A stretch of 64,000 nucleotides of DNA from Candidatus Vogelbacteria bacterium (GTDB lineage Bacteria > Patescibacteriota > Minisyncoccia > Phycocordibacterales > JACRKE01), in assembly GCA_016215335.1 (NCBI GenBank), contig JACRKE010000037.1:2924-66923 (forward strand). Reading direction: 5' to 3'. The translations under genes were made by a program, and so were the position numbers. Under the pieces are notes generated by a model. The model did not search any database and was not told the origin of the DNA. It saw only the letters and a list, made by a program, of their open reading frames with translations. Shown here one piece after another: positions 21,435 to 35,905 of the stretch (the first letter of the stretch is position 1; each line of letters begins with the position of its first letter).

Positions 21435-22151
21435 ATGAAGAAAGAGCCGCAAAAAATGTGGCCGATATTTGCATTAGGAGCGGTGGTAGTTCTCGCCATC
21501 GTGCTTAAGATTTATACATGGATATTTTCAGGGGAGACCCTCCCGCCGGCTGAATACAAGGCAGTTGTTGGACCAGTGGGGACGAGCACTGGACTTGCTT
21601 TCAATATGGCCAACTGGCAAATCAATCCCTCCACCTCAAGCAACGAGTTTTCTAGTGTTGAGCCGATGAAAAACTTCACCGACAGCGACATTAAGAAAAC
21701 TTCCGATAATGGCAAGACGAGAATAAAAATGTACGCGACAGCTTTGAAATCAGCTCTGGCGCCGTATTCTGACCCCAAGCAGAAAAGTGCACCAGAAATA
21801 CTCATGAAAGTGTACGAAACGAACGACCCCGCCGAGCTTTCGAAACTTCTAGAAGCAAAAAATAATCACCAAACGGCACTGAACTCTCTACTTGCAATTG
21901 AAGTACCATCAGACATTGCGCGTTACCACTTAGTCTTAATCAATTCTGTAGGAAGATTACACTTTCTCGTAAATAATATGCTCAAAGTGGGGGACAAGCC
22001 AGTACTCGCGCTCACGAGCGCTAGAATCTTTGGCTCCGAAGTAAACAGATTCGCTGATGCTCTGACCGTTTTAAATAATGTTTTTTATAACAAAGGTTTA
22101 GTTTTCGAAGAGAAGGACGAGGTTAGGATTTATTTAACCGCCACCAAGTAA
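21435..22151 (+). CDS. hypothetical membrane-anchored protein
   Basis: 238 aa, N-terminal TM (IFALGAVVVLAIVLKIYTWIF), periplasmic-type remainder. Confidence 0.35.
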   Translation: MKKEPQKMWPIFALGAVVVLAIVLKIYTWIFSGETLPPAEYKAVVGPVGTSTGLAFNMANWQINPSTSSNEFSSVEPMKNFTDSDIKKTSDNGKTRIKMYATALKSALAPYSDPKQKSAPEILMKVYETNDPAELSKLLEAKNNHQTALNSLLAIEVPSDIARYHLVLINSVGRLHFLVNNMLKVGDKPVLALTSARIFGSEVNRFADALTVLNNVFYNKGLVFEEKDEVRIYLTATK

Positions 22152-22160
22152 CTTGCAGTT

Positions 22161-25100
22161 ATGAAACCTAAAGAGAATAGCGCAAAAACAGACAGACACC
22201 GAGAGAACGTAAAAAAATACGCTTTGGTGATTTTACTTACGTTCCCCCTACTCGCGCTTTATTTAAAATTTGACACCCCTAAGGTTTCAGCTAGCATAAT
22301 CGAAACCATACAGAATGGAATGACAAACTTTAATCAATCCGTGGGTAACGCAACCGGCGGAGGGAACAGTGCGACAGGAGCTTCGAATTCAGGGGTTGGT
22401 AAAGTATCTTGCTTTGAACAAACCGGTCTACCGATATCTGACAGCGAACTTGCGCCAAACAAGACTCCGAGCGCAACACCGGCAGATGGAGTTAAGGCTA
22501 CTGTTGGCGCAGTAAGAACTATCGGAGAGGGAGTTGCCGCCAGACTAAATCAGGCCGGACCGGGCATTGAAGCACTTGGCATTGTGGCATTTGGCTCTAG
22601 ACCAGCGAGCACAGCTATAGCTATGGGGTTACCACTCACGAATAAAACACTGGCCACAACCCAAGTTTCGACCATAGGAAACTTCGCCAGTCACAGCATA
22701 AGTAATGAGGCTATCAAAGTAGACGATTCAAAACCCATTCTGCCACATAGCTACTATTCCATTATGGAATCTCCGAAAGTTTTAGCGGTCGCAGTTATTT
22801 CTGATACAACAACCATATCGGAACAGATGTCTTTACTGCTTGGCGTAGTTACTGAAATCGGAAAGGAGATAAAAACATTAGGGGGAACTGCTCCGAACAA
22901 GACTGAATTCTTCCAAGGTACACAGATTATTTCGACTTCTCTCGACAATCTTTCTTCAATGTTTAGAGCTCAACCGACATCAGCCAACCGCAATTTAATT
23001 CAAAGTTCTATTACCGCTCTAACAGCATCCCTAAAAGAAACCCAAATCGCTCAAACTGATGTGAACCGCGCCCTTGCCGTAAGTGACTTGGTAATAAGGG
23101 GGGGCAATCTGCTTTCACAGATTGCTCAAGTACCCATTAGGCCGTCATCCGAGGAAATTGAATCCCTGCGTCTTTTCAATGAGAACGGTGCCACATTCAA
23201 TCAAAGCATGCAAAATATTTATGACCTAACAAATGACACTGGCAGTGGAATGCCGCTTGAAAATGCAGCCGTTTTAGCTGAAATCATAAAAATAGTTTCG
23301 GATGAATATTCGGTGGCACTCCAAACCGCAAGCGCCACAGGAAATTACAATAGCCCTGCGTTTCTCGAGGCCGCCAGACGAATGAAGGTTCTGACTGACA
23401 ACCTGACCACACTATCAAACAGGAATGTGAGTGATGATGTGGCCACAGGGGCCACCAATAACTTAATTAACGGGGGAATTATTTCCAGCAACCAAGGACC
23501 ATCAGCCCTAAGCGGTATGCAGGCAATCAATACAATCGCGCAAATGAGCGGTTCAGGGGGAGGAACACAGTCATTTACAAATATAAATAGAGCAATACAA
23601 CAGTCAGGAATGCTTTCATCGGGAGCCGGGGCCCAAATGGGCAACGCACTTCAAGCATTCGAACAAATCCAAAAGATTTTCAGTGGGAAGGGAGGGGCAA
23701 TGGGGATTCTTCAGGGCGTAAAACAGCTTAGTGGCATGTTTAGTGGTGGCTCAAGCTCAATCGGACGAGCGGTTTCCAATATGGGTTCTGGGGCAGGGGG
23801 AGGAGGACTGGGAGCGGGTGGTGGAAACACTCCGCCCCTGAACCCGTCGCCCGAGGAAGTCAATGGCCAAAGAATTGCCGCACGAGATTTGTCCGATAGC
23901 GCTGGCGGAGTGAAGGAAGACGCAGACGATGCCGGCGATAAAGCGGCGGAAGCGCCGGCGGCGGGCGAAGGTACCCCAGAAGCAGTCGACAAAAAAGGAG
24001 CAGAAAAAGAAGGCGGGGCCGGAACCGGTGGCACAAGCAAGAAAACACCTATCGCCGACAATCTGGGTGGTAGTGAAATCGGCGTACCAGTAAACGTGAA
24101 GAAAGGGACACCATATTTCAATATAGTGAAAAGCATTCGAGAGATTAGCTCGCAAGCGTGCGATTATCTCGCAGACATTGACCTTATCCAGCAACTCACG
24201 TGGGACAAGATTCACGTGCAAGACCCTAAAACTGTGAATGAGGTCGCAGAAGCGACCAAGAAAGCCGCCGAAGAATGGGAGAAGACAATGGCAGACAAGC
24301 GTAAATTGCCGGATGGTAATAAGGGCTCTTTCCGTCCAACATATGAACAGTTTGAGAAAGAGAACGTAACAGTAGCGGACGCGGCCGCCTATGACCGAGC
24401 TAAAAAAGCTTTCGAAAAAAACGCGTTCAAGGATGAACTCCAAAAAAAACTTGAAGCTGAAATGAAAAAAAGTGCCGACAAGGACGTAAGCTTTGAAAGC
24501 GTGCTCAAAATTGCGAAAGAGAAGCCGAAAGAAGGCAAAGATCAGAAAACGGCAAACGACTTTATCCAGGCTCACTCGCCCTACTTTGATCCAACCATAC
24601 TTTATGGCAAAGCCATAGAAATGGTAAAGGACACTAGAACAAAGAGGATAGAAGACGCGCAAGCCACATACCAAGGCAACTTGACAGTCCCGCCCCAAAC
24701 AAAATGCGAAGGCGCAGGAAGAAAGGTGAAAAATGCGCAAGGGAAAGAGATCTGTATACATCCTGAAATAGACGGTCCGGCAGGTGCGGTGCTTGCACTT
24801 ACTGATTACAGATGGAGGACTTCACCCATAGAACAGGCGGATTCGACGACCGGAACAAGCCAAAGAGACCACAAGGAAAGAGTGGCCGAGGCTCCAAAAG
24901 AACAGCTACCTGATTCCGGTATGCAGGATGGTGGCGACGACCGTGATCAGGATGGTAATCCCGGTGGAGACAATGACGACGGCGGCGGAAATGACGATGA
25001 CGGAGATGGAGGTGGAGACGATGGAGGAGATGATGGCGGAGGAGGAGGCGGAAATGGCGGGGGCGGTGAAGACTGGCTAAAAAAACTGCTCGAAATTTAT

Positions 25101-25886
25101 TGCAGAGCCAATCCGACAAGTCGAATATGTGGCGGAAATGGCGGCGGGGGCGGGGGAGATAATCCACCTGCTGAAGTCAAACCAGTCCTCGCACTATCAA
25201 GCACAAAAACAACGGTGAATGGTCTGCCAGCGGTAAGTTTGACATGGGCCGTGAACGGCGCAAGGTCGTGCCGAACCGATAACGCTTGGGTGAGTTACGG
25301 CAAAGGCGCGAGCGCATCGCTTACAAAAGAAAACTTGGTAACATCAGGTTCATCACTCCCGCCAAAATGCGGGAGTGGAAATGGGACATGCAGCCAAACG
25401 GTTTATGAGCCGGCGGTGTTTAAAGTGGCAGTATCGATCACATCGCCATCAGGCGTTCCGCGCGCCGACCAATCGCGCTCATTTGAAACATCACTCACGA
25501 TGGAACCGACGCTCAATCAGTCTTCCGGCAGTACGGTCTACCAAACAACTTCATTTAGGCCAAACTTAAGTGGTGTTGTCGCGGGAGACTCTGTTGTTCT
25601 AACCGTAAACGGATCCACGCTTAGAGGTGTAATCCCGGCAGGAACAGTAAGCGCTTCACTCGTCACCGATCTTATACGAGACGCTAAGAGCCTTCTCACT
25701 CCTACGAGCCCGGAGTATGAAACGTTTAATTCTCTCACTCTCTCGTCTCTAAACGAAATCCTCACTATTTCCGGAAGCACACGAAGCACGGCCACAATAC
25801 CCGCGAATACAGAATACAAAATGTCTTGCGAGAACAACGCGGGAGAGACCAAAGATTCCACAGTTTCAACAATAGCAACCCCATAG
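22161..25886 (+). CDS. giant (1241-aa) membrane-anchored surface protein with G/S-rich and D/G-rich acidic tracts
   Basis: N-terminal TM (YALVILLTFPLLALYL); long low-complexity Gly/Ser/Ala/Asn-rich region; acidic DGGDDRDQDGNPGGDNDDGGGNDDDGDGGGDDGG tract; Cys-containing C-terminal domain. Confidence 0.5.
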   Translation: MKPKENSAKTDRHRENVKKYALVILLTFPLLALYLKFDTPKVSASIIETIQNGMTNFNQSVGNATGGGNSATGASNSGVGKVSCFEQTGLPISDSELAPNKTPSATPADGVKATVGAVRTIGEGVAARLNQAGPGIEALGIVAFGSRPASTAIAMGLPLTNKTLATTQVSTIGNFASHSISNEAIKVDDSKPILPHSYYSIMESPKVLAVAVISDTTTISEQMSLLLGVVTEIGKEIKTLGGTAPNKTEFFQGTQIISTSLDNLSSMFRAQPTSANRNLIQSSITALTASLKETQIAQTDVNRALAVSDLVIRGGNLLSQIAQVPIRPSSEEIESLRLFNENGATFNQSMQNIYDLTNDTGSGMPLENAAVLAEIIKIVSDEYSVALQTASATGNYNSPAFLEAARRMKVLTDNLTTLSNRNVSDDVATGATNNLINGGIISSNQGPSALSGMQAINTIAQMSGSGGGTQSFTNINRAIQQSGMLSSGAGAQMGNALQAFEQIQKIFSGKGGAMGILQGVKQLSGMFSGGSSSIGRAVSNMGSGAGGGGLGAGGGNTPPLNPSPEEVNGQRIAARDLSDSAGGVKEDADDAGDKAAEAPAAGEGTPEAVDKKGAEKEGGAGTGGTSKKTPIADNLGGSEIGVPVNVKKGTPYFNIVKSIREISSQACDYLADIDLIQQLTWDKIHVQDPKTVNEVAEATKKAAEEWEKTMADKRKLPDGNKGSFRPTYEQFEKENVTVADAAAYDRAKKAFEKNAFKDELQKKLEAEMKKSADKDVSFESVLKIAKEKPKEGKDQKTANDFIQAHSPYFDPTILYGKAIEMVKDTRTKRIEDAQATYQGNLTVPPQTKCEGAGRKVKNAQGKEICIHPEIDGPAGAVLALTDYRWRTSPIEQADSTTGTSQRDHKERVAEAPKEQLPDSGMQDGGDDRDQDGNPGGDNDDGGGNDDDGDGGGDDGGDDGGGGGGNGGGGEDWLKKLLEIYCRANPTSRICGGNGGGGGGDNPPAEVKPVLALSSTKTTVNGLPAVSLTWAVNGARSCRTDNAWVSYGKGASASLTKENLVTSGSSLPPKCGSGNGTCSQTVYEPAVFKVAVSITSPSGVPRADQSRSFETSLTMEPTLNQSSGSTVYQTTSFRPNLSGVVAGDSVVLTVNGSTLRGVIPAGTVSASLVTDLIRDAKSLLTPTSPEYETFNSLTLSSLNEILTISGSTRSTATIPANTEYKMSCENNAGETKDSTVSTIATP

Positions 25887-25887
25887 A

Positions 25888-28347
25888 ATGAATCTCTTGA
25901 ACTCAAAATACAGGAGACTCACCATTGCAATAATCGCGCTTACACTTGTGGCATCTTTTTTCTATCTGCCTGTCCAAAATTATGGAAAGCTTTCTTTGGC
26001 GGGAGCGAACACAGCATATGCCGAAGGAGTGAAAGAAGCGGTGGAAACATTCACTGCGACAGTCTCAAAATTCACTTCGTACCTTAGTAATCCAGACAAA
26101 ATTCTTGACCTTTTGGCTGATTTGGCAAATTCCTTCTTTTCAGCTGTAGATTGGATCTTTTCTTGGGTAATAATAGTGGCCTCTGCAATTTTTGAAACAG
26201 TGGTTTATCAGTTTGTAATAAAACTTAGTACGTATTTTCAGAAAGGCGAGTTCGTGGAAAAAATATGGATCCAACTCCGTAACTTCAGTAATATTTTCTT
26301 TATATTTATCCTGTTATATATAGGCATAATGACTATAATACAGCCTATTACCAAGCAAACTTTCGACTGGGGCAAAAGAACCATAGCAGTAATAATCGCC
26401 GCCCTACTGATCAACTTCAGTCTGCCTCTCACAAAGACCGTTGTCGACATTTCGAACATTGTCGCTTATCAGTTCTACAGCAAAATGAAGAGCGAACCCG
26501 ACAAGCCGATAGGCGTGTCATTTAACCTTGAAAAATTGAGGAACGTCGACTTGAGAAAAGAGTTTATGGTCTGGAGCGTGATTGAAGCCAGAGAAGAAGT
26601 GTCAAAAAAGCTAAAAAGTCTTGTGTCTGGGAAAGGTTTGGCGGCGGGACTGAATGCCGGTGTAACCATACTTAATATTCTACTCATTGCTGTTATGGCC
26701 TACGGCATAGTATACGGGGCCTTCATAATTCTAGTTCGTTTTATCGCCGTAGTAGTGCTTGTGGCTGTGTCGCCCCTGCCCTTTCTCTTGTGGCACTTCA
26801 GACCGACACAACCGTATGCCCATATGTATATAAGAGAACTGATCGCCTCGTGTGCCGTACTGCCAGTCTTTATGGCCTGTCTTTATATAGCGCTCTTTAC
26901 TGCGAAAGAATTGCCGAGATTACTGGGCACAGGATCGGGAACGGCAGGAGCGTCAACCGGAGCGACCGGATCATTCCTGGGGACCGCTGCCTACGCCGCG
27001 GGTGCTGACGGAAGTGGTGCGAGCATAGCGATGCTAATGATAGGCTATCTTGTACCAGCAGCCATGGTAATAGGCGCAACCATAATAGCCAAACAAGTTG
27101 GTGGAAGTGTCGGCAGTATGGCGGAAGCCGCAACTAAAAAAGTGGCGGCTTACGGAACACTTGGAATTGGTGCTTACGCTGGCTCAAGAGTGGGAGGAGC
27201 GATGTTAAATAATCGTTTAGGAAATTGGGTAGACCAAAAAACCGGCGGAAGAATTACTCAATTTTCTACAAAAGCAGCAGCCATCACAAACTCCGGCCTT
27301 GCAATGGCAGGAGTAGCGCCTCTAGCTTCCACAACTGCACAAAGATTAGAGGCTAAAGAAACATCAGACAAGGCTAAAGAAAAAACAAGAGTGGATACAA
27401 GAGTTGCGGCTCTGAAAAATATGGTCAAAGCTCAGGGGCTAGAGGACAAAGGCAGAGAAGCGGAACACGCAAAGGTTATAGACTCTTTGAAAGACAAAGA
27501 AGTACAAAAAGCGTACTACAAGTCACTTGATCCTAAACAACAAAAAGCCGTGGAGGGCAGTTTGTCGCCAACAACCAAGAGTAATTTGATATCGCTCAGA
27601 AGCGCGCAGGTGAAGGATAATCCTAAGGAAATTGCAGACCACCTAAACGGCCTCAAGGGGGACGATCTAATAGAATTCTACACCGATCCAACCAAGATGA
27701 AAGACTACCAGAAACAGCAGGTAGAGAAACTACTAAGCCCTGAAACCAAGAAGGCACTCGACAGTACCCTCACCTTCAACCAAAGGAAACTTGGAAAAAT
27801 GGCGGAACTCGAGGGGAACATCGCTGGCCAAATGGCGTATTTGAAAAACACCCTCGCGAGTAACCCGACAGACCAAGAGCTATTCTTCACAAGTCTCTCG
27901 AATGAAGATGCGGCAAGTTTACTCAATCAGTTGGAAGCAAGTGGAACAGGCGGAAAAGCTCTTGCCTTGAATCTAAAGAACTCTTTAAGCAAATCGGCCA
28001 AAGGAAACGTTGGAAAAGAAGCGACAAAGATAGCAGCCGCACAGGACACAACAAGAAATTTGACAACAGCCAACAATTCTTCAGCCGCTCCTTCTGATAT
28101 TAAAAATTCGCTCCAGTGGCTATCTGAGAATTCCAAAGACAAATTATTGAAAGGGAATATGCTTTCTAAACCACACGTACTTCCACACATTAGCGTAGAA
28201 TTACTGAGAGACTTGTCCGAGATGACAGTCCAAAGAAAAGCTGTTGTTAATAATCTGATCCAGAGTGCTAAGAATCCGGGATATGCTGGCCCAATGCCAA
28301 CTTCTGACGTTCTTGATTTCGTAATGGATCATCCAGAATGGAAATAA
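25888..28347 (+). CDS. polytopic membrane protein with long coiled-coil C-terminal half (VirB6/TrbL-like candidate)
   Basis: 819 aa, 7 or more TM helices in the first ~420 aa, then a K/E-rich coiled-coil; topology resembles T4SS VirB6 proteins; no sequence motif. Confidence 0.35.
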   Translation: MNLLNSKYRRLTIAIIALTLVASFFYLPVQNYGKLSLAGANTAYAEGVKEAVETFTATVSKFTSYLSNPDKILDLLADLANSFFSAVDWIFSWVIIVASAIFETVVYQFVIKLSTYFQKGEFVEKIWIQLRNFSNIFFIFILLYIGIMTIIQPITKQTFDWGKRTIAVIIAALLINFSLPLTKTVVDISNIVAYQFYSKMKSEPDKPIGVSFNLEKLRNVDLRKEFMVWSVIEAREEVSKKLKSLVSGKGLAAGLNAGVTILNILLIAVMAYGIVYGAFIILVRFIAVVVLVAVSPLPFLLWHFRPTQPYAHMYIRELIASCAVLPVFMACLYIALFTAKELPRLLGTGSGTAGASTGATGSFLGTAAYAAGADGSGASIAMLMIGYLVPAAMVIGATIIAKQVGGSVGSMAEAATKKVAAYGTLGIGAYAGSRVGGAMLNNRLGNWVDQKTGGRITQFSTKAAAITNSGLAMAGVAPLASTTAQRLEAKETSDKAKEKTRVDTRVAALKNMVKAQGLEDKGREAEHAKVIDSLKDKEVQKAYYKSLDPKQQKAVEGSLSPTTKSNLISLRSAQVKDNPKEIADHLNGLKGDDLIEFYTDPTKMKDYQKQQVEKLLSPETKKALDSTLTFNQRKLGKMAELEGNIAGQMAYLKNTLASNPTDQELFFTSLSNEDAASLLNQLEASGTGGKALALNLKNSLSKSAKGNVGKEATKIAAAQDTTRNLTTANNSSAAPSDIKNSLQWLSENSKDKLLKGNMLSKPHVLPHISVELLRDLSEMTVQRKAVVNNLIQSAKNPGYAGPMPTSDVLDFVMDHPEWK

Positions 28348-28366: not shown

Positions 28367-28975
28367 ATGCAAAACTTAAACATAAACGACTACTCAAGTA
28401 GACTGACCAATCTTCCACCAAAACTGAAGCAGGCGATTTTGTCTGCCGATACACAATCGGCCATCGAAAACATTCACCAAAAGTACAAGCTTCATATTGA
28501 CAAACTAGGGAACCTTGAAGACATTACTCTCGATGTGCTGTACGGGGTGATAAAGCCCCAGGAGTATGTAGACAAGCTGGAATCAACACTTGGGATTGAT
28601 CGGGCTACAGCGGCGGGAATAACGGTCGACATGAACAACTCCCTCTTCCAGCCACTTCGAGACTCACTCATGGAGATTGGCACACCGAGTAATCACGTTG
28701 AATCTGATAGGACTTCCATTTTAAATGAAATACAGAATCCCACACCCACACCCATATCCGGAAGAGTAGTAATTGATTCAATGGGGGAGCCTGAAATTAG
28801 TGCGGCCCAGAGTCAAGAGTTAGGAGTTAGGAGCCAAGAATTAGAATCCGAATCCCAACTACCAACTACTGAACCCAAAGCATTCAACTCTATAGCGGAG
28901 GAGAAGCTTGCAGGCCCAGTAGTGGCAGAAAAAATAGAGACAAGGGTTGATCCGTATTTGGAAGCGCTGAATTAG
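28367..28975 (+). CDS. hypothetical protein
   Basis: 202-aa ORF inside the T4SS-like cluster; its stop codon TAG is the first unit of a TAGGTTG heptamer array. Confidence 0.3.
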   Translation: MQNLNINDYSSRLTNLPPKLKQAILSADTQSAIENIHQKYKLHIDKLGNLEDITLDVLYGVIKPQEYVDKLESTLGIDRATAAGITVDMNNSLFQPLRDSLMEIGTPSNHVESDRTSILNEIQNPTPTPISGRVVIDSMGEPEISAAQSQELGVRSQELESESQLPTTEPKAFNSIAEEKLAGPVVAEKIETRVDPYLEALN

Positions 28976-29076: not shown

Positions 29077-29484
29077 ATGCAATTTCAAGTTCCACAATTC
29101 ATCGAAGTAGAGGACAAAATAGTCGGGCCTTTTACTTTTAAACAACTGATTTTTATGATCGGCGGTCTTGGCGGAATCTATATTCTCAAAAAAATTCTGC
29201 CCGCCATGCTTGCGTATCCGCTCATGCTCGCGCTCGGAGTGTTCACGTGGGCTCTCATTTTTTACAAATACAATGACAGGCCTTTTATTCTAGCTCTTCA
29301 ATCTTGGATAAAATACGAACTTTCCGCCAAATTGTATCTGTGGAACAAGCATCCGAAACCGATTACAACCAAAGACCCAAAGAAGCCCGGTGCCGCAATA
29401 CCAACCACAATGGCACCTACAGTATCGCAGAACAAATTAAAAGAGCTGTCATGGAGTTTAGACATTCAAGATAGTGTGAAGTGA
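29077..29484 (+). CDS. PrgI-like small membrane protein (T4SS VirB3-like candidate)
   Basis: 135 aa with two hydrophobic helices (LIFMIGGLGGIYIL, AYPLMLALGVFTWALIFY), located directly upstream of the VirB4-like ATPase as in Gram-positive-type conjugation loci. Confidence 0.5.
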   Translation: MQFQVPQFIEVEDKIVGPFTFKQLIFMIGGLGGIYILKKILPAMLAYPLMLALGVFTWALIFYKYNDRPFILALQSWIKYELSAKLYLWNKHPKPITTKDPKKPGAAIPTTMAPTVSQNKLKELSWSLDIQDSVK

Positions 29485-29566: not shown

Positions 29567-30223
29567 ATGGCCGACGCAAAACAAACGAGATTAACGCAGG
29601 ATTTTGTACCTATCGAGGAGGTGCGTGATGGAATTGCCTTGCTCAAAGACGGTACAATGTGCCTTATATTGATGGCATCCTCACTCAACTTCGCCCTCAA
29701 GTCTTCAGACGAGCAGCAAGCGATCCTGCTCCAATTCCAAAACTTTTTAAACTCTCTTGACTTCAGCGTGCAATTTTACGTTCAGTCAAGAAAACTCGAC
29801 ATCAGACCATATTTAGCGACTCTTGAGGATCGTTTGGCTCTGCAGACCAACGACCTTATCAAGATTCAGATTAAGGAATACATTGGATTTATTAAAAACT
29901 TCACCGAAAACACAAGTATCATGACCAAAAGTTTTTTCTTGGTTATTCCGTATACGCCTGCCATGCTCAACGTAAAACAAAGCAAAGGCATACTGTCACA
30001 GTTCTTCGGAAAAGGTTCGACTAAAGAACAGGACGATCTGAAAAAGTTAACCTTCGAGGAGAACCGTACACAACTTGAACAAAGAGCGAGCGTGGTAGAA
30101 CAGGGACTCGCGAGAACAGGAGTGAGGACCATCCCTCTCGGCACAGAGGAGCTCGTGGAACTTTATTACAAAATATTCAATCCTGGCGAACTCGAGAAGC
30201 CGATCGCCAACAGAATACAATAA
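29567..30223 (+). CDS. VirB4-like N-terminal domain encoded as a separate ORF
   Basis: 218 aa; the stop at 30221-30223 is followed 4 nt later by the ATG of the ATPase ORF in another frame; combined length 836 aa equals a full-length VirB4. Confidence 0.4.
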   Translation: MADAKQTRLTQDFVPIEEVRDGIALLKDGTMCLILMASSLNFALKSSDEQQAILLQFQNFLNSLDFSVQFYVQSRKLDIRPYLATLEDRLALQTNDLIKIQIKEYIGFIKNFTENTSIMTKSFFLVIPYTPAMLNVKQSKGILSQFFGKGSTKEQDDLKKLTFEENRTQLEQRASVVEQGLARTGVRTIPLGTEELVELYYKIFNPGELEKPIANRIQ

Positions 30224-30227
30224 ACAT

Positions 30228-32084
30228 ATGGCACTATTCGGATTCTTGGGCAAAAAAAATACAGAGAGCGAAAAAGCAAGCGAGCCGACGACCGCGCCTA
30301 TTCTCCCGCAGCAGATTTATGAGGCGGGCCTGCTTGATCTTAAAGACGTCATCGCTCCTTCCGCTCTCAAAATCACGCCTCAAGAGCTCAATTTGGGAGA
30401 GAAAATCGCCAGAACATTTTTCGTAATTTCATACCCGAGGTTTCTTTCTGAAAATTGGTTCTCGCCAATTATCAACTTAGACAAAATTTTCGACGTATCC
30501 ATTCTGGTACACCCCATAGACACGGCTGATGTCTTGCACAAACTGCAGAAAAAGGTGGCGCAAGTGGAAAGCCAGATAGCCCTAAGAGCAGAGAAAGGTA
30601 TGGTCCGGGATCCTGTTCTTGATGTCGCCTTTCAAGACATCGAACAGTTGCGAGATCAGCTCCAGCAATCGAGAGAGCATATTTTCGATGTCGGTCTTTA
30701 CATCACAATTTACGCAGACACAATAGAAGAGCTAAACAAAACCGAGTCCGAGGTTAAATCTATCCTCGAGGCCAAATTAGTCTACATCAAGCCCGCGCTC
30801 TTCCAGCAAGAAGAAGGCTTCTCGACCGTAATGCCAATTGCAACCGACAAACTATCAGTAAACTCAAAGCTTAATTCATCACCGCTCTCAAGTCTTTTTC
30901 CATTCATCTCATTCGACTTGTCTTCTGATAAAGGTATTCTTTACGGCATCAACAGGCACAACTCGGGTCTTGTTTTATTTGACAGATTCTCTTTGGAGAA
31001 TTATAACTCGGTCGTATTCGCTAAGGCTGGATCGGGTAAGAGCTATCTCACAAAACTCGAGATTCTCCGCACACTAATGTTCGATACGGACGTCATTGTT
31101 ATAGATCCAGAGCGCGAGTACGAATACTTAGCCGAAGCTGCGGGTGGACGTTACTTTAACATTTCACTTACTTCAGAAAACCATATAAATCCGTTTGATC
31201 TACCTCCTGTGGGAGAAGGGGAAACTGCTGCTGACGTGCTTCGTTCAAACATTATTAACCTTGTTGGACTATTTCGTCTCATGCTTGGAGGGCTCACTCC
31301 GGAAGAAGATTCTATTATTGACTCTGCTGTTACTGAAACCTACGCCTTAAAAGACATCACTCCGGAAGCCGATTTCACAGGCAAAGAACCTCCGCTCCTT
31401 TCTGATATGGAACTTGTGCTTGCCGGCATGGAAGGAGGAGCGTCGCTCGCACAAAGAATGCTCAAGTATACTCAAGGTACGTGGGCGGGATTCATTAATC
31501 GCCCAACAAACGTAGACATCAACAAAAAGTTCGTAGTGTTTTCTATCCGCGATATGGAAGAAGAACTGAAGCCGGTCGCAATGTACATAGTCATGCACAA
31601 TATCTGGAACTCTGTGCGCAAAGAGCTGAAGAAGAGACTGCTTGTGGTGGACGAGGCGTGGTTTATGATGAAATCGCAAGATACCGCGTCCTTCCTATAC
31701 GGACTTGCCAAACGAGGCCGTAAATATTTCCTCGGGGTGGCTACGATCACCCAAGACGTGGAAGACTTCCTTAAATCTCCTTACGGAATTCCAATCATTA
31801 CGAACTCTTCTATTCAGGTGTTAATGAAGCAATCACCGGCATCCATTGATATTGTTCAGAAGACATTCAACCTGACAGAGGAGGAGAAATATCTGCTCCT
31901 TGAATCGGCGGTCGGAGAGGGGATCTTCTTCGCTGGGATGAAGCATGTGGCGATCAAAGTTATCGCGTCATACACCGAAGACCAGATCATTACGTCGGAC
32001 CCATCACAACTCCTGTCGATAAGAAAAGCGAAAGCTGAGTTGAAGATGGTGGAGGGTGAAGTCGGGCAGGGAACCGTAAATTAG
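30228..32084 (+). CDS. VirB4/TrbE/CagE-like type IV secretion ATPase (C-terminal ATPase part)
   Basis: Walker A AKAGSGKSYLTK, Walker B LLVVDEAWFMM, conserved VirB4 C-terminal motifs (GVATITQDVEDF). Confidence 0.75.
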   Translation: MALFGFLGKKNTESEKASEPTTAPILPQQIYEAGLLDLKDVIAPSALKITPQELNLGEKIARTFFVISYPRFLSENWFSPIINLDKIFDVSILVHPIDTADVLHKLQKKVAQVESQIALRAEKGMVRDPVLDVAFQDIEQLRDQLQQSREHIFDVGLYITIYADTIEELNKTESEVKSILEAKLVYIKPALFQQEEGFSTVMPIATDKLSVNSKLNSSPLSSLFPFISFDLSSDKGILYGINRHNSGLVLFDRFSLENYNSVVFAKAGSGKSYLTKLEILRTLMFDTDVIVIDPEREYEYLAEAAGGRYFNISLTSENHINPFDLPPVGEGETAADVLRSNIINLVGLFRLMLGGLTPEEDSIIDSAVTETYALKDITPEADFTGKEPPLLSDMELVLAGMEGGASLAQRMLKYTQGTWAGFINRPTNVDINKKFVVFSIRDMEEELKPVAMYIVMHNIWNSVRKELKKRLLVVDEAWFMMKSQDTASFLYGLAKRGRKYFLGVATITQDVEDFLKSPYGIPIITNSSIQVLMKQSPASIDIVQKTFNLTEEEKYLLLESAVGEGIFFAGMKHVAIKVIASYTEDQIITSDPSQLLSIRKAKAELKMVEGEVGQGTVN

Positions 32085-32110: not shown

Positions 32111-32168
32111 TTGAAACTGGAAGTTAGAAACTGGAATGGTACATTATTCAAGTTTCCATATTCCAGTT
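32111..32168 (+). repeat. cassette-boundary repeat copy A (AAACTGGAAGTTAGAAACTGGAATGGTACATTATTCAAG)
   Basis: ~40-nt unit sharing ~85% identity with copy B; lies 27 nt after the VirB4 stop. Confidence 0.7.
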
Positions 32169-32188
32169 ACCAGATTCTAAACAAAAAA

Positions 32189-32626
32189 ATGGCGAGCCAA
32201 GAGTCCGTAAAACTAGAGAAAAGAATCGAGGTCAGGTGGCCTCTTGTTTTCCTCGCCGCAATTATTTTCGATGGGATAAAGCTTTTACTGCTCGCCCTAG
32301 ATTTGATCGGCTTGCTTGGAGCGGGGTCAGCGGTGAACAGTATTTTGAGCTCAATTTCGGGCTGGATTATTTGGACTCTTTTGAAGTCGGGAGGCGCTCC
32401 AAATCCATGGAAAGATATCCAGAGTTCATTCATTTCAGGCATAATCCCGTTCTGGCACTACATAGGCCAATCGTGGATTGTGAGAAGCGCAAGGCTTCTC
32501 AAGAAATACAAGAAAATGAATGCCGAGTTTGATAAAAAGCGAGCGGAAGAGCTGAACAATCTTATAGCAGAGATAAACAGAGAATCTGCAGAAGCCTTGA
32601 GTTCACCTGAACCCCAAATAGCATAA
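32189..32626 (+). CDS. small membrane protein
   Basis: First ATG (MASQESVKLEK...). The upstream part of track ORF 32111.. is a TTG-initiated read-through of a repeat element. Two TM helices, then a charged C-terminus. Confidence 0.4.
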   Translation: MASQESVKLEKRIEVRWPLVFLAAIIFDGIKLLLLALDLIGLLGAGSAVNSILSSISGWIIWTLLKSGGAPNPWKDIQSSFISGIIPFWHYIGQSWIVRSARLLKKYKKMNAEFDKKRAEELNNLIAEINRESAEALSSPEPQIA

Positions 32627-32628
32627 CC

Positions 32629-33657
32629 ATGTTTCAAATTCAAAACCTAAAAAAATATCTGCCCGGAATATTACTTATAGCGGTGATATTGTTTGCCCTT
32701 CCGGAAAACAGTTGGGCGATAACACAATATTCAATCAAAGGAGATGTTTCCGTGGAAGCAGTACCCGAAAATCCCATTCCAAATTCAAGCGTTAAATTCA
32801 GCGTTACAGACGGTTCAACCGAGTACGAAAATTCAATATACCAGTGGACGCTCGATGGAAAAACTATCCTGAAGGGGCTCGGCCAGAAATCAGTGACTTT
32901 TGCCACCGGACGAGCGGGCAAAGTCATGCAACTTTCGCTCGAACTGCTGACCCCGAGGGGAGAGCTCGTGCAAAAAAAGTTCAGTATAAATCCCGCAAGC
33001 GTTTCAATTGTTTGGGAGACAGATAGTTACACTCCGGACTTCTACGACGGCAAGCCGTTGCCGACGGAAGGTTCCAACGTGCGTTTTATCGCTGTGCCCG
33101 AAATGTACGAGCCGAACGGCAGAAAACTCACGCCAAGCGAACTATACTTTGAATGGAGTCATGAATTCGAAAAAGATTCAGCCATGTCAGGCTACAACAA
33201 AGATGTTTACCCCTACGAGTTTTTAAACACTCTGCGTGAAGATAATTTCTCGGTCAGAGTGAGGAACTTGGATGGCAGTATCGTGGCCGATACCGCGACA
33301 TATCTTGAAGCCATAGATCCGGAAATGTACTTCTACGAGGACAGTCCTCTCCGCGGCACTATATTCAGTAGAGCGGTGAGCGGGGAGTACAATATGGGTT
33401 CGCGAGAAATTACACTCCGCGCAGAACCATATTTTCTGCCGCTCGATAACAAGAGCAGATTGGTGAATGGAATCTTCGACTGGGAGATCGACGGCAAGTT
33501 AGCCACTCCAAGCTCTGGAGACAGGTCTGCGATTACTCTCAGACAAGACAAGGCGGGCAGTGGTAGTGCTGATCTCTCGGCCAAAGTGACAACGGGAACA
33601 GTCGACGTGTCGGCAAATCTTACTGTAAACTTCAGCAAGGGAAGCGTTAGATTTTGA
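32629..33657 (+). CDS. exported protein (signal peptide)
   Basis: 342 aa; N-terminal signal (LLIAVILFALPENSWA); beta-rich composition. Confidence 0.4.
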   Translation: MFQIQNLKKYLPGILLIAVILFALPENSWAITQYSIKGDVSVEAVPENPIPNSSVKFSVTDGSTEYENSIYQWTLDGKTILKGLGQKSVTFATGRAGKVMQLSLELLTPRGELVQKKFSINPASVSIVWETDSYTPDFYDGKPLPTEGSNVRFIAVPEMYEPNGRKLTPSELYFEWSHEFEKDSAMSGYNKDVYPYEFLNTLREDNFSVRVRNLDGSIVADTATYLEAIDPEMYFYEDSPLRGTIFSRAVSGEYNMGSREITLRAEPYFLPLDNKSRLVNGIFDWEIDGKLATPSSGDRSAITLRQDKAGSGSADLSAKVTTGTVDVSANLTVNFSKGSVRF

Positions 33658-34565
33658 TCTATATGAACAGCAAAAAACATCTAAAAATTACAGGACTTAT
33701 AGTGATATTACTCTTTTCTCTTTCTATTTTTACTACAAGCTCATACGCGCTTCAGAACCCGGAAGGTCTCTCCGACAGCTCGGGCAATTCAGGAGCAAAT
33801 CTCCTCGAACCGAGCGTCGAAACAGTGCTTGGCTTCAGCTTTAATAGTTCTTTTGAATCTTTCGCTCTCAAAACATACCAGTGGCTTTTCTGGCTTGCGG
33901 AACTGCTGGCGGTCATAATGCTCGCAATGTATGGCATAGCCTATGTTTGGGGCGCTTTTGGCAGTGAGGCACTAATCAATGAATATAGAGGATACATTAA
34001 AGACATTTTAATCGGCGGCACAATACTGCTTTTAAGCTATCTCATACTAAATACAATCAATCCCAAACTTCTAACAAGTAAACTTTCCATTGAATGCATA
34101 GCAGCGAACGGCTGCAAGGGAATGACGGGGGGTGGGGGAAATAATGATGATTTGAATGTTGCGAGAGACACAACAGAGGCTAATCCGCCACAACGTTTTG
34201 TTCCACCAGTAGACAGAGGGACCGGAGATTTAATTACTGCAATGCGAACAAGTGGTATAGCGGTGAATGGAGACGTAACAAACATAACAAGTACGACAGT
34301 AGGAGGACTTAACGTATTGAACGGAGATATTACAGGAGATTTAACTGACTCGCGAGTCACTGGCACAACTCTCGATTATCGTGGGTTTGTCATCGGGGCT
34401 GACGGAAACCAAACAGTTATTTTAGCCCCGACAGAGAGATTAAATCTTTACTATAACACCTTGCCACGTTCGGGAATCACCGACTCTAGAAGTACTCCCC
34501 ACGGACTGCTTACATTTGATGAAACAAGTGGAAACTACGAATATCGTAATTCTCCAAGATTTTAA
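33654..34565 (+). CDS. membrane protein with signal peptide and two further hydrophobic helices (pilin/VirB2-like topology) plus G/T/N-rich C-terminal extension
   Basis: 303 aa; overlaps the previous stop by 4 nt; topology only. Confidence 0.35.
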   Translation: MIYMNSKKHLKITGLIVILLFSLSIFTTSSYALQNPEGLSDSSGNSGANLLEPSVETVLGFSFNSSFESFALKTYQWLFWLAELLAVIMLAMYGIAYVWGAFGSEALINEYRGYIKDILIGGTILLLSYLILNTINPKLLTSKLSIECIAANGCKGMTGGGGNNDDLNVARDTTEANPPQRFVPPVDRGTGDLITAMRTSGIAVNGDVTNITSTTVGGLNVLNGDITGDLTDSRVTGTTLDYRGFVIGADGNQTVILAPTERLNLYYNTLPRSGITDSRSTPHGLLTFDETSGNYEYRNSPRF

Positions 34566-34579
34566 CTACCCTGCATTCC

Positions 34580-35905
34580 ATGACCTACAAAAGTTTAATT
34601 ATTATAGTTCTAATCTTCCTCTCCATCGGAGCTGGGGCTGGTTGGTATTTCTTTCGGCCCGCCGCGCCGGCTCCGGACGGCGCGGCGGGTGATGCTGTTT
34701 CTGACACAGGCTATTTTCCATCCACGGGTAACTCTTCCGGCGATTCGTCGGGCAAAGGCTCGGGAGGAGCCACAATAATTAAACCTTCGGATCAGGCGGA
34801 CGGGGGTGATAATCTTAACGCAAATGTGAATGTAAATGTGCCGGTTATGCGCCAACTGGTATCGTCACCAGTTTCTGGAGCCACGATACTTACTCACGGG
34901 AGTTCAACATACGTAAGATACATCGAACAAAATACGGGACATATGAGTGAGATCGCTGCGACCGAAAAAGTCTCGAACAAAATCACAAACACAACTATTC
35001 CAAAGACTTACAAAATATTCTGGGGGCCTAAGGGAACTGCCGTCGTTGCAAAGATGTTTGGAGATGAAGGACGCATGAACATTTTGTTCGCCACAACCAC
35101 AATACCTCTTAAGGCCACCACCACGGAAGAAACCTATCGGACATTCACACCGGACTTCGGCTCTTCTATCGGAACACTAGATGGTCTTCTTCTCCCATCG
35201 ATAATAAAAAGTATCGCAGTCTCGCCGGACTCAAACAAACTTTTTTTCCTACTCAAAACCGAAAGCGGGACTGTGGGGGTAATTTCGAATTTCAAAGATG
35301 CCGTTTCAGCTAAAGCACAGATACCCATATTCCAGTCCAGATTGTCAGAGTGGCTTTCGGATTGGCCGGGGAGTGACATTATATTACTCAATTCAAGGCC
35401 GTCTTCAGGAATAACAGGCCTGACTTATTTATTAAACGCGAAAACCAAAAGAACCGAAAAAATTCTTGAAGGCATGGGTCTCACCGCAAAAGCAAGTCCG
35501 GATACCAAGAAGGTAATATTTGCCACCGGCGAGGGAAGCGGACTAAAAACTTTTCTCTATAACATCAATACAAACAAGAAGTTGGCATTTCCACTTCAAA
35601 CCTTGCCGGAAAAATGCACTTTTAGTTTCGACTCGCGTTATGCGTATTGTGGCGTACCCGCACAATTGCCTCTGGGAGAATACCCTGATGACTGGTACAA
35701 AGGCAAAATTCAGTTCAATGACGCAATATGGAAAGTGGACCTGGACAATTTAATCTCCACCGTAATTTCTCCTACCAACACATCACGTACAAGCAGAATT
35801 ATAGACGCAATAGAGTTGAAAACAGATCAAACAGGCGATCTGCTTATCTTTAAGAACAAAATAGATGACACGCTGTGGGCACTCACGCTGGAAACTGGAA
35901 GATAG
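34580..35905 (+). CDS. membrane-anchored exported protein
   Basis: 441 aa, N-terminal TM (LIIIVLIFLSIGAGAGWYFF), Gly/Ser-rich linker; stop codon lies inside repeat copy B. Confidence 0.4.
   Translation: MTYKSLIIIVLIFLSIGAGAGWYFFRPAAPAPDGAAGDAVSDTGYFPSTGNSSGDSSGKGSGGATIIKPSDQADGGDNLNANVNVNVPVMRQLVSSPVSGATILTHGSSTYVRYIEQNTGHMSEIAATEKVSNKITNTTIPKTYKIFWGPKGTAVVAKMFGDEGRMNILFATTTIPLKATTTEETYRTFTPDFGSSIGTLDGLLLPSIIKSIAVSPDSNKLFFLLKTESGTVGVISNFKDAVSAKAQIPIFQSRLSEWLSDWPGSDIILLNSRPSSGITGLTYLLNAKTKRTEKILEGMGLTAKASPDTKKVIFATGEGSGLKTFLYNINTNKKLAFPLQTLPEKCTFSFDSRYAYCGVPAQLPLGEYPDDWYKGKIQFNDAIWKVDLDNLISTVISPTNTSRTSRIIDAIELKTDQTGDLLIFKNKIDDTLWALTLETGR

What the first reader, a model, noticed from the sequence alone, without database searches (positions are those of the whole stretch)
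21435..35905. Conjugation/T4SS-like cluster with Gram-positive-type organisation
Contiguous plus-strand genes:
- TM protein (21435)
- 1241-aa surface protein (22161)
- 819-aa polytopic VirB6-like protein (25888)
- PrgI-like two-TM protein (29077)
- VirB4-like ATPase (29567-32084)
- Four further exported or membrane proteins, including one with pilin-like topology (33654..34565)

A VirD4/TraG-like coupling ATPase lies at 7669..10074. pilB and comM are elsewhere in the window.

No relaxase, VirB11 or pilin gene is recognisable. The apparatus may therefore serve DNA uptake or host-cell interaction rather than conjugation.
Basis: partly seen in the sequence, partly recalled or inferred. Interest (0 to 1): 0.65.

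Follow-up and report, generated by a model that had tools for sequence, protein, structure and literature searches.

The report
Patescibacteria chromosomal type IV secretion locus
This is the relaxase-less, Gram-positive-type type IV secretion gene cluster that nearly all ultra-small CPR/Patescibacteria carry next to their replication origin; it has been described since 2023-2025, so the reading is correct but not new.

Summary
Window 21435-35905 is a tightly packed plus-strand block of 12 genes in a Candidatus Vogelbacteria MAG (Parcubacteria/Paceibacteria, CPR).

Recognisable parts:
- A PrgI/VirB3 protein.
- A VirB4 ATPase encoded as two genes: a TrsD-like N-domain plus the ATPase. The split is present in 78 of 78 related loci.
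- An extended VirB6/TrbL-like polytopic protein.
- A VirB2-like pilin (PF18895 family) with a C-terminal extension.

I found no relaxase, integrase, VirB11 or outer-membrane core. The VirD4-like ATPase at 7669-10074 belongs to a separate conserved two-gene module.

The whole block sits between uvrD-rsmA and yidC-rnpA-dnaA-dnaN in about 60 or more other species, so it is a fixed chromosomal locus and not a mobile element. Its VirB4 ATPase (median 76% identity) is more conserved than DnaA (55%) across the same loci.

This matches the Patescibacteria T4SS of Wang et al. 2023 and Quinonero-Coronel et al. 2025. That system is essential for epibiotic growth in Saccharibacteria, and what it transports is unknown.

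Modest additions from this work:
- Conserved unannotated accessory genes, including a membrane-anchored protein with three Ig-like domains and a TolB-like beta-propeller.
- Pilin-peptidoglycan hydrolase fusions in some relatives.

Novelty is low.

The parts
21435..22151 (+). g238: bitopic membrane protein (one N-terminal TM helix, apparently helical ectodomain). First gene of the conserved block. Function unknown.
   Evidence: TM at residues 8-26. Family present in 55 related loci at the same position. No Pfam, NCBIfam or PDB match.
22161..25886 (+). g1241: large N-terminally anchored, Gly/Asp-rich protein, presumably on the surface. It occupies the lineage-variable slot that other Paceibacteria fill with a 300-1300 aa secreted protein (family F9).
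   Evidence: TM at 17-35. The only homologue is in the closest relative L001 (33% identity over about 1100 aa). No detectable relation to F9 (hhalign probability 0.2). Some F9 members carry F5/8 type C or InlB B-repeat domains.
25888..28347 (+). Extended VirB6/TrbL-like polytopic membrane protein: about 7-8 TM segments in residues 1-400, then a hydrophilic C-terminal domain of about 400 aa.
   Evidence: TM prediction. 13/45 orthologues hit Pfam TrbL/VirB6 PF04610, best E=1.9e-7. The family profile weakly hits R388 TrwI (7o3v_F, E=0.42). The window protein itself has no TrbL hit.
28367..28975 (+). g202: soluble, presumably cytoplasmic protein with a conserved N-terminal domain of about 100 aa and an invariant C-terminal DPYxE motif. 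Function unknown.
   Evidence: No TM segment. Family present in 64 loci. D195, P196, Y197 and E199 are invariant in 45 sequences. No PDB hit.
29077..29484 (+). PrgI/VirB3-like small two-TM protein.
   Evidence: Pfam PrgI PF12666, E=9.6e-9, 36.1 bits against a gathering score of 27. Present in 66 related loci directly upstream of the VirB4 genes.
29567..30223 (+). TrsD-like protein, equivalent to the N-terminal domain of VirB4 encoded as a separate gene.
   Evidence: NCBIfam VirB4_plasma positions 100-233 (E=2.7e-10), CD1110 positions 2-119 (E=2e-5), TrsD/TraD (E=1.6e-4). A separate ORF in 78/78 loci. Median identity 61%.
30228..32084 (+). VirB4 ATPase proper, with Walker A (AKAGSGKS) and Walker B (LLVVDEAW) intact.
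   Evidence: NCBIfam conju_CD1110 371 bits against a cutoff of 325, covering model positions 185-734. Pfam P-loop_TraG E=5e-25. PDB 4AG5 E=1.5e-39 and TrwK E=1.9e-8. 74-87% identity to 80 Patescibacteria loci. Motifs read from the translation.
32189..32626 (+). g171/145: small multi-TM protein with a charged C-terminal tail. It occupies the slot just downstream of virB4 that holds small TM proteins (families F18/F23/F26) in relatives. Function unknown.
   Evidence: TM prediction. Matches the F18 HMM at E=1.2e-6. No consistent Pfam hit among 44 members.
32629..33657 (+). g342: N-terminal TM anchor followed by three tandem Ig-like beta-sandwich domains outside the membrane. Conserved accessory component.
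   Evidence: AlphaFold2 mean pLDDT 89.3. Foldseek against PDB returns only generic tandem Ig/FnIII matches. Present in 75 related loci. W73, G141, W176 and Y236 are among the invariant positions in both alignments.
33654..34565 (+). VirB2-like T4SS pilin-family protein: signal peptide, a hairpin of two hydrophobic helices (about residues 65-134), and a C-terminal extension of about 170 aa of unknown fold.
   Evidence: Pfam T4SS_pilin E=0.019 alone. Matches the F3 family HMM at E=1e-24 over residues 1-166. 51/60 F3 members hit PF18895 and 5 hit TrbC/VirB2. TM segments.
34580..35905 (+). g441: N-terminal TM anchor, disordered Gly/Ser linker, and a TolB-like beta-propeller outside the membrane. 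Last gene of the conserved block.
   Evidence: AlphaFold2 mean pLDDT 85.8. Foldseek top hits include TolB. The family profile hits TolB 7mx5 at E=3.3e-5. Some homologues carry PD40 or a fused PG_binding_1 domain. Present in 60 loci.
7669..10074 (-). VirD4/TraG-type coupling-protein-like ATPase with Walker A (GQTGSGKT) and Walker B (YMDEFQ) and an unusual N-terminal domain of about 380 aa. It is not part of the cluster proper.
   Evidence: Pfam T4SS-DNA_transf 32.6 bits against 20.1, and TrwB_AAD_bind 27 bits against 20.5. All NCBIfam T4CP models score below their cutoffs. PDB DotL E=0.002. Not within 10 kb of virB4 in any of 80 genome loci. Motifs read from the translation.
10090..10533 (-). 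g147: small soluble protein encoded directly upstream of the T4CP-like gene. Together they form a conserved two-gene module.
   Evidence: Found next to the T4CP homologue in 45/80 metagenome loci. No Pfam hit.
20429..21394 (+). rsmA/ksgA, the conserved left flank of the locus (uvrD lies at 18333-20378).
   Evidence: Pfam RrnaAD E=1e-51, UvrD, synteny.
36673..40973 (.). Conserved right flank at the replication-origin region: yidC (-), rnpA (-), dnaA (+), dnaN (+).
   Evidence: Pfam hits, synteny in about 45-59 loci.

Best explanation

Shown here:
- A cytoplasmic-membrane translocon of monoderm (MPF_FATA) ancestry. It comprises PrgI/VirB3, a two-gene VirB4 (TrsD-like N-domain plus ATPase with intact Walker motifs) and an extended VirB6.
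- One VirB2-like pilin-family protein.
- Seven other conserved or position-conserved proteins. Six are membrane-anchored or secreted and one (g202) appears soluble. Among them are a three-Ig-domain protein and a TolB-like beta-propeller.
- The locus is vertically inherited, fixed between rsmA and yidC-rnpA-dnaA next to the origin, and has no relaxase in the window.
- Its ATPase is under stronger constraint than DnaA.

Inferred:
- VirB4 powers assembly of an envelope-spanning channel and probably a VirB2-type pilus-like tube.
- The Ig-like and propeller proteins would form or stabilise the cell-wall-spanning part.
- The variable large surface protein and the variable pilin C-terminal domains would provide host contact or wall-cutting functions.
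- The machine serves the obligate host-attached lifestyle, exchanging macromolecules with the host cell (effector export and/or import of host material). It does not serve plasmid conjugation.

The transported substrate and its direction are unknown.
For: Component identities.

The VirB4 split is conserved in 78/78 loci.

The order uvrD-rsmA-g238-[variable]-VirB6-g202-PrgI-TrsD-VirB4-[small TM]-g342-pilin-g441-yidC-rnpA-dnaA-dnaN recurs in most of 80 species loci. Flanks are confirmed.

Median identity to the window across the same loci: VirB4 ATPase 76%, TrsD-like 61%, DnaA 55%, UvrD 50%, DnaN 44%, YidC 39%.

No relaxase or integrase family appears in any scanned window ORF. GC content is uniform across the cluster and its flanks.

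Structures of g342 and g441.

Literature:
- 2,425 VirB4s form a monophyletic Patescibacteria clade nested in MPF_FATA. TrsD, PrgI, VirB6 and VirB2-like pilins lie nearby, relaxases are rare, T4CP lies elsewhere, and the locus is near ksgA/rnpA/dnaA/dnaN in Paceibacteria (PMC12102498).
- T4SS and pilin genes are essential for epibiotic growth of Southlakia epibionticum (PMC10633639; review PMC12857230).
Against: - No experiment exists for any Paceibacteria system. Function is extrapolated from one Saccharibacteria species.
- The window's VirB6-like and pilin-like proteins do not pass Pfam thresholds on their own, only through their orthologous families.
- No VirB8-like or VirB1-like component was found in the window cluster.
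- Roles proposed for g238, g1241, g202, g171, g342 and g441 rest on position, topology and fold only.
- The loci compared were chosen by VirB4 similarity (the top 80 of at least 526), which inflates the VirB4 identity somewhat.
- A relaxase elsewhere in the genome cannot be excluded from a 64-kb window.
Confidence: 0.88

Rival explanations
1. It is the transfer module of an integrated conjugative element (ICE) or a decaying remnant of one. The distant VirD4-like ATPase would act as its coupling protein and move DNA to other cells.
For: VirB4 belongs to the CD1110 family typical of Firmicutes ICEs. A T4CP-like ATPase with intact Walker motifs lies 11 kb away. In the closest relatives the T4CP module lies within about 6-8 kb of uvrD-rsmA-g238 (L082, L083, L096).
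Against: No relaxase, integrase or Rep family appears in any window ORF. The chromosomal position and flanks are identical in dozens of species, which mobile elements do not show. There is no compositional break. All ORFs are intact and VirB4 is more conserved than DnaA, so the locus is not decaying. T4CP is not linked to virB4 in 80/80 genome loci. Relaxases occur in only 103 of 3,035 Patescibacteria genomes (PMC12102498).
Confidence: 0.03
2. It is a DNA-uptake (competence-type) T4SS, analogous to Helicobacter ComB or the archaeal Ced system. It would import environmental or host DNA for transformation or as a nucleotide source.
For: There is no relaxase and no linked T4CP, as in ComB-type systems. 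comM (2098-3912) and pilB (48280-50046) are in the window. Weak NCBIfam hits to CedB for both ATPases. In the ABY1 class, T4SS loci sit with comF, recG and radA (PMC12102498). CPR bacteria lack nucleotide synthesis.
Against: The CedB hits are far below cutoff (42.6 and 22.5 bits against 700). The comM and pilB linkage is not conserved: comM appears in only 3 of 80 T4CP loci and in none of the virB4 loci. In S. epibionticum, competence depends on ComEC, and deleting comEC abolishes transformation without affecting viability, whereas the T4SS is essential (PMC12857230). The essential role is therefore not ComEC-dependent transformation.
Confidence: 0.12
3. The flanking conserved genes (g238, g1241/F9, g202, g171, g342, g441) are unrelated envelope genes that merely sit beside a minimal PrgI-VirB4-VirB6-pilin system because both are near the origin.
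For: None of these six has any sequence or fold match to a known T4SS component. Ig-like and beta-propeller folds are generic.
Against: They interleave with the recognised components: g202 lies between VirB6 and PrgI, and g171 and g342 lie between VirB4 and the pilin. They are on the same strand with gaps of -4 to about 100 nt. The order is kept in about 55-75 of 80 loci while sequences have diverged to 25-30% identity.
Confidence: 0.1

Closest known systems
Patescibacteria-clade T4SS (Southlakia epibionticum SEML1_0006-0019, Wang et al. 2023, PMC10633639; phylum-wide survey by Quinonero-Coronel et al. 2025, PMC12102498)
   Same: TrsD-like gene plus VirB4, PrgI/VirB3, VirB6 and VirB2-like PF18895 pilin. 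No relaxase, T4CP unlinked, chromosomal and origin-proximal (near ksgA, rnpA, dnaA and dnaN), monoderm ancestry.
   Different: A single pilin-family gene with a long C-terminal extension, where Saccharimonadia have an array of 6 pilins. No peptidase or lysozyme gene downstream of virB4. The Paceibacteria-specific conserved accessory genes (three-Ig protein, TolB-like propeller, g238, g202) are not discussed in those papers.
MPF_FATA conjugative T4SSs of Firmicutes (CTn2 CD1110-type; pGO1/pSK41 TrsC-TrsD-TrsE; pCF10 PrgH-PrgI-PrgJ)
   Same: VirB4 passes the CD1110 equivalog cutoff. There is a separate TrsD-like N-domain gene as in pGO1. PrgI-type VirB3 and VirB6-type polytopic protein are present. 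There is no outer-membrane core complex.
   Different: No relaxase, no adjacent T4CP, and no VirB8-like (PrgL/TcpC) or VirB1-like (PrgK/TrsG/CwlT) gene recognised. It has a VirB2-like pilin, which Gram-positive systems lack. It is chromosomally fixed and not mobile.
DNA-import T4SS-like systems (Helicobacter ComB; crenarchaeal Ced)
   Same: VirB4-family ATPase acting without a relaxase. A possible import direction.
   Different: No membership is supported: CedB models score far below cutoff and no ComB/Ced-specific subunits were found. Essentiality in Saccharibacteria is independent of ComEC-mediated competence.

Membership tests
Type IV secretion system, Patescibacteria clade (MPF_FATA-derived) | VirB4-family ATPase with intact nucleotide-binding motifs | tested here: met
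   NCBIfam conju_CD1110 371 bits against a cutoff of 325. PDB 4AG5 E=1.5e-39. Walker A and B read in the translation.
Type IV secretion system, Patescibacteria clade (MPF_FATA-derived) | VirB4 groups with the monophyletic Patescibacteria VirB4 clade | tested here: inconclusive
   No tree was built. Indirect support: 74-87% identity to VirB4 of 80 Patescibacteria MAG species, with more than 526 relatives found.
Type IV secretion system, Patescibacteria clade (MPF_FATA-derived) | TrsD-like protein (VirB4 N-domain homologue) encoded next to virB4 | tested here: met
   29567-30223 hits the N-terminal parts of VirB4 models and TrsD. It is a separate ORF in 78/78 loci.
Type IV secretion system, Patescibacteria clade (MPF_FATA-derived) | VirB3/PrgI small membrane protein adjacent to VirB4 | tested here: met
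   Pfam PrgI 36.1 bits against a gathering score of 27.
Type IV secretion system, Patescibacteria clade (MPF_FATA-derived) | VirB6/TrbL polytopic membrane protein | tested here: met
   Met at family level only. 13/45 positional orthologues hit PF04610, best E=1.9e-7. The window protein has the polytopic topology but no direct hit.
Type IV secretion system, Patescibacteria clade (MPF_FATA-derived) | VirB2-like pilin (PF18895/PF04956) near virB4 | tested here: met
   Met at family level. The window protein scores E=0.019 alone and E=1e-24 against the orthologue HMM. 51/60 orthologues hit PF18895.
Type IV secretion system, Patescibacteria clade (MPF_FATA-derived) | No associated relaxase | tested here: met
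   No relaxase family in any ORF of the 64-kb window. The rest of the genome was not available.
Type IV secretion system, Patescibacteria clade (MPF_FATA-derived) | Chromosomal, origin-proximal context (ksgA, rnpA, dnaA, dnaN) as reported for Paceibacteria | tested here: met
   rsmA/ksgA lies directly upstream. yidC, rnpA, dnaA and dnaN lie directly downstream. The same flanks occur in about 45-59 loci.
Type IV secretion system, Patescibacteria clade (MPF_FATA-derived) | VirB8-like bitopic NTF2-fold protein (present in most monoderm T4SSs, rarely found in Patescibacteria) | tested here: not met
   No Pfam, NCBIfam or PDB-profile hit for any cluster protein.
Conjugative element (ICE or plasmid transfer region) | Relaxase (MOB) and a linked type IV coupling protein | tested here: not met
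   No relaxase found. The T4CP-like gene lies 11 kb away on the other strand in its own module and is never within 10 kb of virB4 in 80 loci.
Conjugative element (ICE or plasmid transfer region) | Mobility signatures: integrase, variable insertion site, compositional break | tested here: not met
   No integrase in or next to the cluster. An IS200-type transposase lies 27 kb away. The position is fixed across species. GC content is uniform.
Type IV coupling protein (VirD4/TraG/TrwB) for 7669-10074 | Match to the T4CP nucleotide-binding domain, plus an N-terminal membrane anchor | tested here: met
   Pfam T4SS-DNA_transf and TrwB_AAD_bind are above their gathering scores. One N-terminal TM helix is visible in the sequence. 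All NCBIfam T4CP equivalogs are far below cutoff, so it is a divergent member.
DNA-import systems (Ced/ComB) | CedB/ComB-specific ATPase and partner subunits | tested here: not met
   CedB scores 42.6 bits against a cutoff of 700. No CedA or ComB subunit hits.

The most novel reading that the evidence does not exclude
The Paceibacteria version of the system may be an import machine and not a secretion machine. In this reading it forms a pilus-like tube. The pilin C-termini (fused to SLT, CHAP or NlpC/P60 hydrolases in some relatives) and the variable large surface protein would breach the host wall. The conserved three-Ig protein and the TolB-like propeller would form a new cell-wall-spanning scaffold that replaces VirB8 and VirB1. 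Host nucleic acids or other macromolecules would be drawn through this conduit to feed a cell that cannot make nucleotides.
Probability: 0.2. Interest if true: 0.85.

Novelty: already known. Interest (0 to 1): 0.3.

Why it matters
CPR/Patescibacteria make up a large share of bacterial diversity, and how they exploit host cells is an open question. This T4SS is among their most conserved machines and is essential in the one species tested.

The locus itself adds no new kind of system. It does provide a clean, complete Paceibacteria example with a defined 12-gene boundary. The comparison across 80 species picks out conserved but unannotated partners as candidates for the missing cell-wall-spanning parts of the apparatus: the three-Ig protein, the TolB-like propeller, g202 with its invariant DPYxE tail, and g238.

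Tried and rejected
1. Frameshift or sequencing error in VirB4. Rejected: the two-ORF arrangement is present in 78/78 loci with varied spacers and frames.

2. Alternative genetic code. Rejected: long ORFs are intact under table 11 throughout.

3. Homology between the 1241-aa protein and the F9 family that fills the same slot elsewhere. Local hmmsearch, including --max, found nothing and hhalign gave probability 0.2. No link is claimed.

4. Profile searches of the g238, g202 and F9 families against PDB sequences gave no significant hits. The g342 profile also gave none.

5. Pfam scan of the small-TM family downstream of virB4 gave no consistent family, only 3 weak PT-TG hits.

6. Promoter and terminator consensus scans gave fewer sites than in shuffled sequence, so they are uninformative.

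The alignments were rebuilt from database hits.

8. Single-sequence homologue search for g342 found only 5 proteins. An alignment query was needed.

9. Rfam and tRNA scans found nothing in or next to the cluster.

Full report
**Observation**

The window carries a compact plus-strand run of ORFs from 21435 to 35905. Gaps between genes range from -4 to about 100 nt. The ORFs are:
- 238 aa (one TM helix)
- 1241 aa (N-terminal anchor, Gly/Asp-rich)
- 819 aa (about 8 hydrophobic segments, then a hydrophilic half)
- 135 aa
- 218 aa
- 618 aa
- about 145 aa (multi-TM)
- 342 aa
- 303 aa
- 441 aa

The last three each have an N-terminal TM helix or signal. GC content is even across the block and its flanks.

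**Recognisable components**

- **PrgI.** The 135-aa protein passes Pfam's threshold for PrgI, the VirB3 of Gram-positive systems (36.1 bits against 27).
- **VirB4 ATPase.** The 618-aa protein passes NCBI's equivalog cutoff for the CD1110-type VirB4 of Firmicutes conjugative elements (371 bits against 325, model positions 185-734). Its best solved relative is the Thermoanaerobacter VirB4 C-terminal domain 4AG5 (E=1.5e-39), followed by R388 TrwK. Walker A (AKAGSGKS) and Walker B (LLVVDEAW) are intact in the translation.
- **TrsD-like N-domain.** The 218-aa protein matches the N-terminal parts of VirB4 models and the TrsD family.

They are separated by TAA-ACAT-ATG and lie in different frames. 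I tested whether this is an assembly error. In 78 of 78 related loci that cover both parts, the two parts are also separate ORFs, with different spacers and frames. The split is a conserved trait.

- **VirB6.** The 819-aa protein has no direct Pfam hit. However, 13 of 45 positional orthologues hit TrbL/VirB6 (best E=1.9e-7), and the family profile weakly finds R388 TrwI. With its long hydrophilic C-terminal half it is an 'extended VirB6'.
- **Pilin.** The 303-aa protein scores only E=0.019 for Pfam T4SS_pilin on its own. It matches an HMM of its positional orthologues at E=1e-24 over residues 1-166. Of those orthologues, 51 of 60 hit PF18895 and 5 hit TrbC/VirB2.

**Organism and context**

The proteins are identical to entries from a Candidatus Vogelbacteria MAG with locus tags HZA95_035xx.

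A scan of one genome per species found more than 526 relatives of the VirB4 gene. The best 80 are all Patescibacteria MAGs and share 74-87% identity. Many are labelled 'uncultured Candidatus Saccharibacteria', but they share the Paceibacteria-type gene order. I take that label as generic.

Gene-family clustering of these loci gives a consensus order:

uvrD - rsmA - (one or two minus-strand genes) - g238 - variable secreted protein of 300-1300 aa - VirB6 - g202 - PrgI - TrsD-like - VirB4 - small TM protein - g342 - one or two pilins - g441 - yidC - rnpA - dnaA - dnaN

The flanks in the window were confirmed by HMM: RrnaAD, UvrD, and YidC, RNase P protein, DnaA and DnaN.

This fixed position beside the origin in dozens of species, the absence of any relaxase or integrase family among all window ORFs scanned, and the even composition together exclude a mobile element.

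**Constraint**

Across the same loci, median identity to the window is:

| Protein | Median identity |
|---|---|
| VirB4 ATPase | 76% |
| TrsD-like | 61% |
| DnaA | 55% |
| UvrD | 50% |
| RsmA | 45% |
| PrgI | 45% |
| DnaN | 44% |
| YidC | 39% |
| Envelope components | 25-30% |

The loci were selected by VirB4 similarity, so the VirB4 figure is somewhat inflated. Even so, the ATPase is at least as constrained as core replication proteins. That fits an indispensable function.

**The coupling protein**

7669-10074 (-) passes Pfam thresholds for T4SS-DNA_transf and TrwB_AAD_bind and has intact Walker motifs. It falls far below every NCBIfam T4CP cutoff and carries an unusual N-terminal domain of about 380 aa.

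It is never within 10 kb of virB4 in the 80 genome loci. In 80 metagenome loci found with it, its only regular neighbour is the small upstream gene g147, present in 45 of 80. Only the closest relatives place it near uvrD-rsmA-g238 (L082, L083, L096). It is best treated as a separate module whose link to the T4SS is unproven.

**Unannotated conserved partners**

I modelled two of them with alignments built from database homologues.

- **g342.** The model (mean pLDDT 89.3) shows a TM anchor followed by three tandem Ig-like beta-sandwiches. Foldseek gives only generic Ig/FnIII matches.
- **g441.** The model (mean pLDDT 85.8) shows a TM anchor, a disordered Gly/Ser linker and a beta-propeller. TolB is among the top structural hits and is also found by sequence profile (E=3.3e-5). 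Some homologues are fused to a peptidoglycan-binding domain.
- **g202.** It has an invariant C-terminal DPYxE motif.
- **g238, g202 and the F9 family.** None has a Pfam or PDB match.
- **g1241.** It has a homologue only in the closest relative (33% identity) and no detectable tie to F9. That slot is lineage-variable. In some species it holds proteins with F5/8 type C or InlB B-repeat adhesin-type domains.

No VirB8-like or VirB1-like protein was recognised in the window. In some relatives the pilin-family gene carries a C-terminal peptidoglycan hydrolase. One example is SLT at residues 393-484 of L018:13774-15240, above Pfam's threshold. CHAP and NlpC/P60 matches in other relatives are weaker.

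**Comparison with the literature**

This is the system described by two papers.
- Wang et al. 2023 (PMC10633639) studied Southlakia epibionticum. They report a T4SS closest to Gram-positive conjugative systems but with pilins and no recognisable relaxase or coupling protein, essential for epibiotic growth.
- Quinonero-Coronel et al. 2025 (PMC12102498) surveyed 3,035 genomes. They found VirB4 in 2,417. Of these proteins, 2,425 form a monophyletic clade inside MPF_FATA. TrsD is the commonest partner, and PrgI, VirB6 and PF18895 pilins lie nearby. Relaxases occur in only 103 genomes. T4CP is mostly unlinked. In Paceibacteria the locus lies near ksgA, rnpA, dnaA and dnaN.

A 2025 review lists it as a new branch of the T4SS superfamily (PMC12857230). 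A 2026 preprint shows tubular structures at a parasite-host interface that may be T4SS pili (10.64898/2026.06.21.733656).

The survey paper does not mention the Ig-like or propeller partners.

**Mechanism**

Shown: the component identities, the topology, the conservation, and the lack of conjugation-specific genes.

Inferred:
- VirB4, together with its separate N-domain, PrgI and VirB6, energises assembly of a channel across the single membrane and the wall, and probably of a VirB2-type filament.
- The wall-associated Ig and propeller proteins scaffold the extracellular part.
- The variable surface protein and the pilin extensions mediate host contact or wall cutting.
- The machine exchanges macromolecules with the host.

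The direction of transport and the substrate remain unknown.

A ComEC-linked competence role is unlikely to be the essential one. In S. epibionticum, deleting comEC abolishes transformation but not viability, whereas the T4SS is essential.

**Verdict**

The feature is an instance of an already described system, so novelty is low. The residual interest lies in the conserved unannotated partners and in the open question of function.

Noticed in passing
window 35991-36612: A nucleotidyltransferase (MNT-type, Pfam Polbeta/NTP_transf_2) and HepT-like RNase pair, i.e. a HEPN/MNT toxin-antitoxin module, lies between the last T4SS gene and yidC. None of the 80 related loci has it at this position.
   Followed up: partly
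L018:13774-15240; L031:15002-16300; L006:13898-14941: In some relatives the VirB2-like pilin-family gene is fused to a C-terminal peptidoglycan hydrolase domain. SLT is above Pfam's threshold; CHAP and NlpC/P60 are weaker. Across 60 family members, VanY, 3D and Amidase_5 also occur. This may supply the missing VirB1 function or act on the host wall.
   Followed up: partly
L005:13885-15303: A single ORF contains two near-identical tandem T4SS_pilin domains (two Pfam stretches). The next gene (L005:15358-16143) repeats the same pilin core again.
   Followed up: no
window 7669-10533 (-); L081-L160: The T4CP-like ATPase and the small upstream gene g147 form a conserved two-gene module (45/80 metagenome loci). 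The full 800-aa architecture, including the unusual N-terminal domain of about 380 aa, is kept at 43-71% identity.
   Followed up: partly
window 10648-18287: Between the T4CP module and uvrD lies a block of large acidic, coiled-coil or Pro-rich proteins with no Pfam hit: 636, 542 and 364 aa on the + strand and 616 aa on the - strand. Two of them have hydrophobic central segments. They are interspersed with three small, apparently paralogous proteins at 14236-14547, 15770-16078 and 16102-16449, one of which weakly hits DUF5663. The large proteins have no tblastn match in any of the 160 fetched loci. Only the small DUF5663-like proteins recur, in a few of the 80 T4CP loci.
   Followed up: no
window 28367-28975 (alignment A10): The 202-aa soluble protein encoded between VirB6 and PrgI ends in a DPYxE motif that is invariant in 45 orthologues, while the preceding approximately 100 residues are highly variable. 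It may be a docking peptide.
   Followed up: no
L001:9576-9998; L005 and L006 between the TrsD-like and VirB4 genes: In four close relatives (L001, L005, L006, L009) the spacer between the two VirB4 genes is about 460-590 nt. In L001 and L005 it holds an extra ORF of about 120-140 aa (family F21). The same family sits upstream of PrgI in L001, L008, L016 and L043. The window lacks it.
   Followed up: no
window 37458-37494 and 46173-46215: Perfect heptamer tandem repeats in intergenic DNA: AGTATAT x5.3 between yidC and rnpA, and CTACAAC x6.1 between ruvC and the yebC-like gene.
   Followed up: no
window 52000-54000: A local GC peak (0.548 against about 0.45). ORFs are open in several frames. 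The longest (52171-53367) encodes a Pro/Arg/Gly-rich protein with no Pfam hit, and there is no Rfam match.
   Followed up: partly
window 62648-63453: An IS200-type Y1 transposase homologue (62812-63453) lies next to tRNA-Lys(ttt) (62648-62721).
   Followed up: no
window 53684-57628: A 1314-aa protein with DUF11, fn3-like (PhoD_N/Pur_ac_phosph_N) and MG2-like repeats. It is a large surface protein unrelated to the T4SS block.
   Followed up: no
L003-L075 record titles: Many loci titled 'uncultured Candidatus Saccharibacteria bacterium' have the Paceibacteria-type gene order and 75-80% VirB4 identity to a Vogelbacteria MAG. The taxonomic label in those records is probably generic.
   Followed up: no
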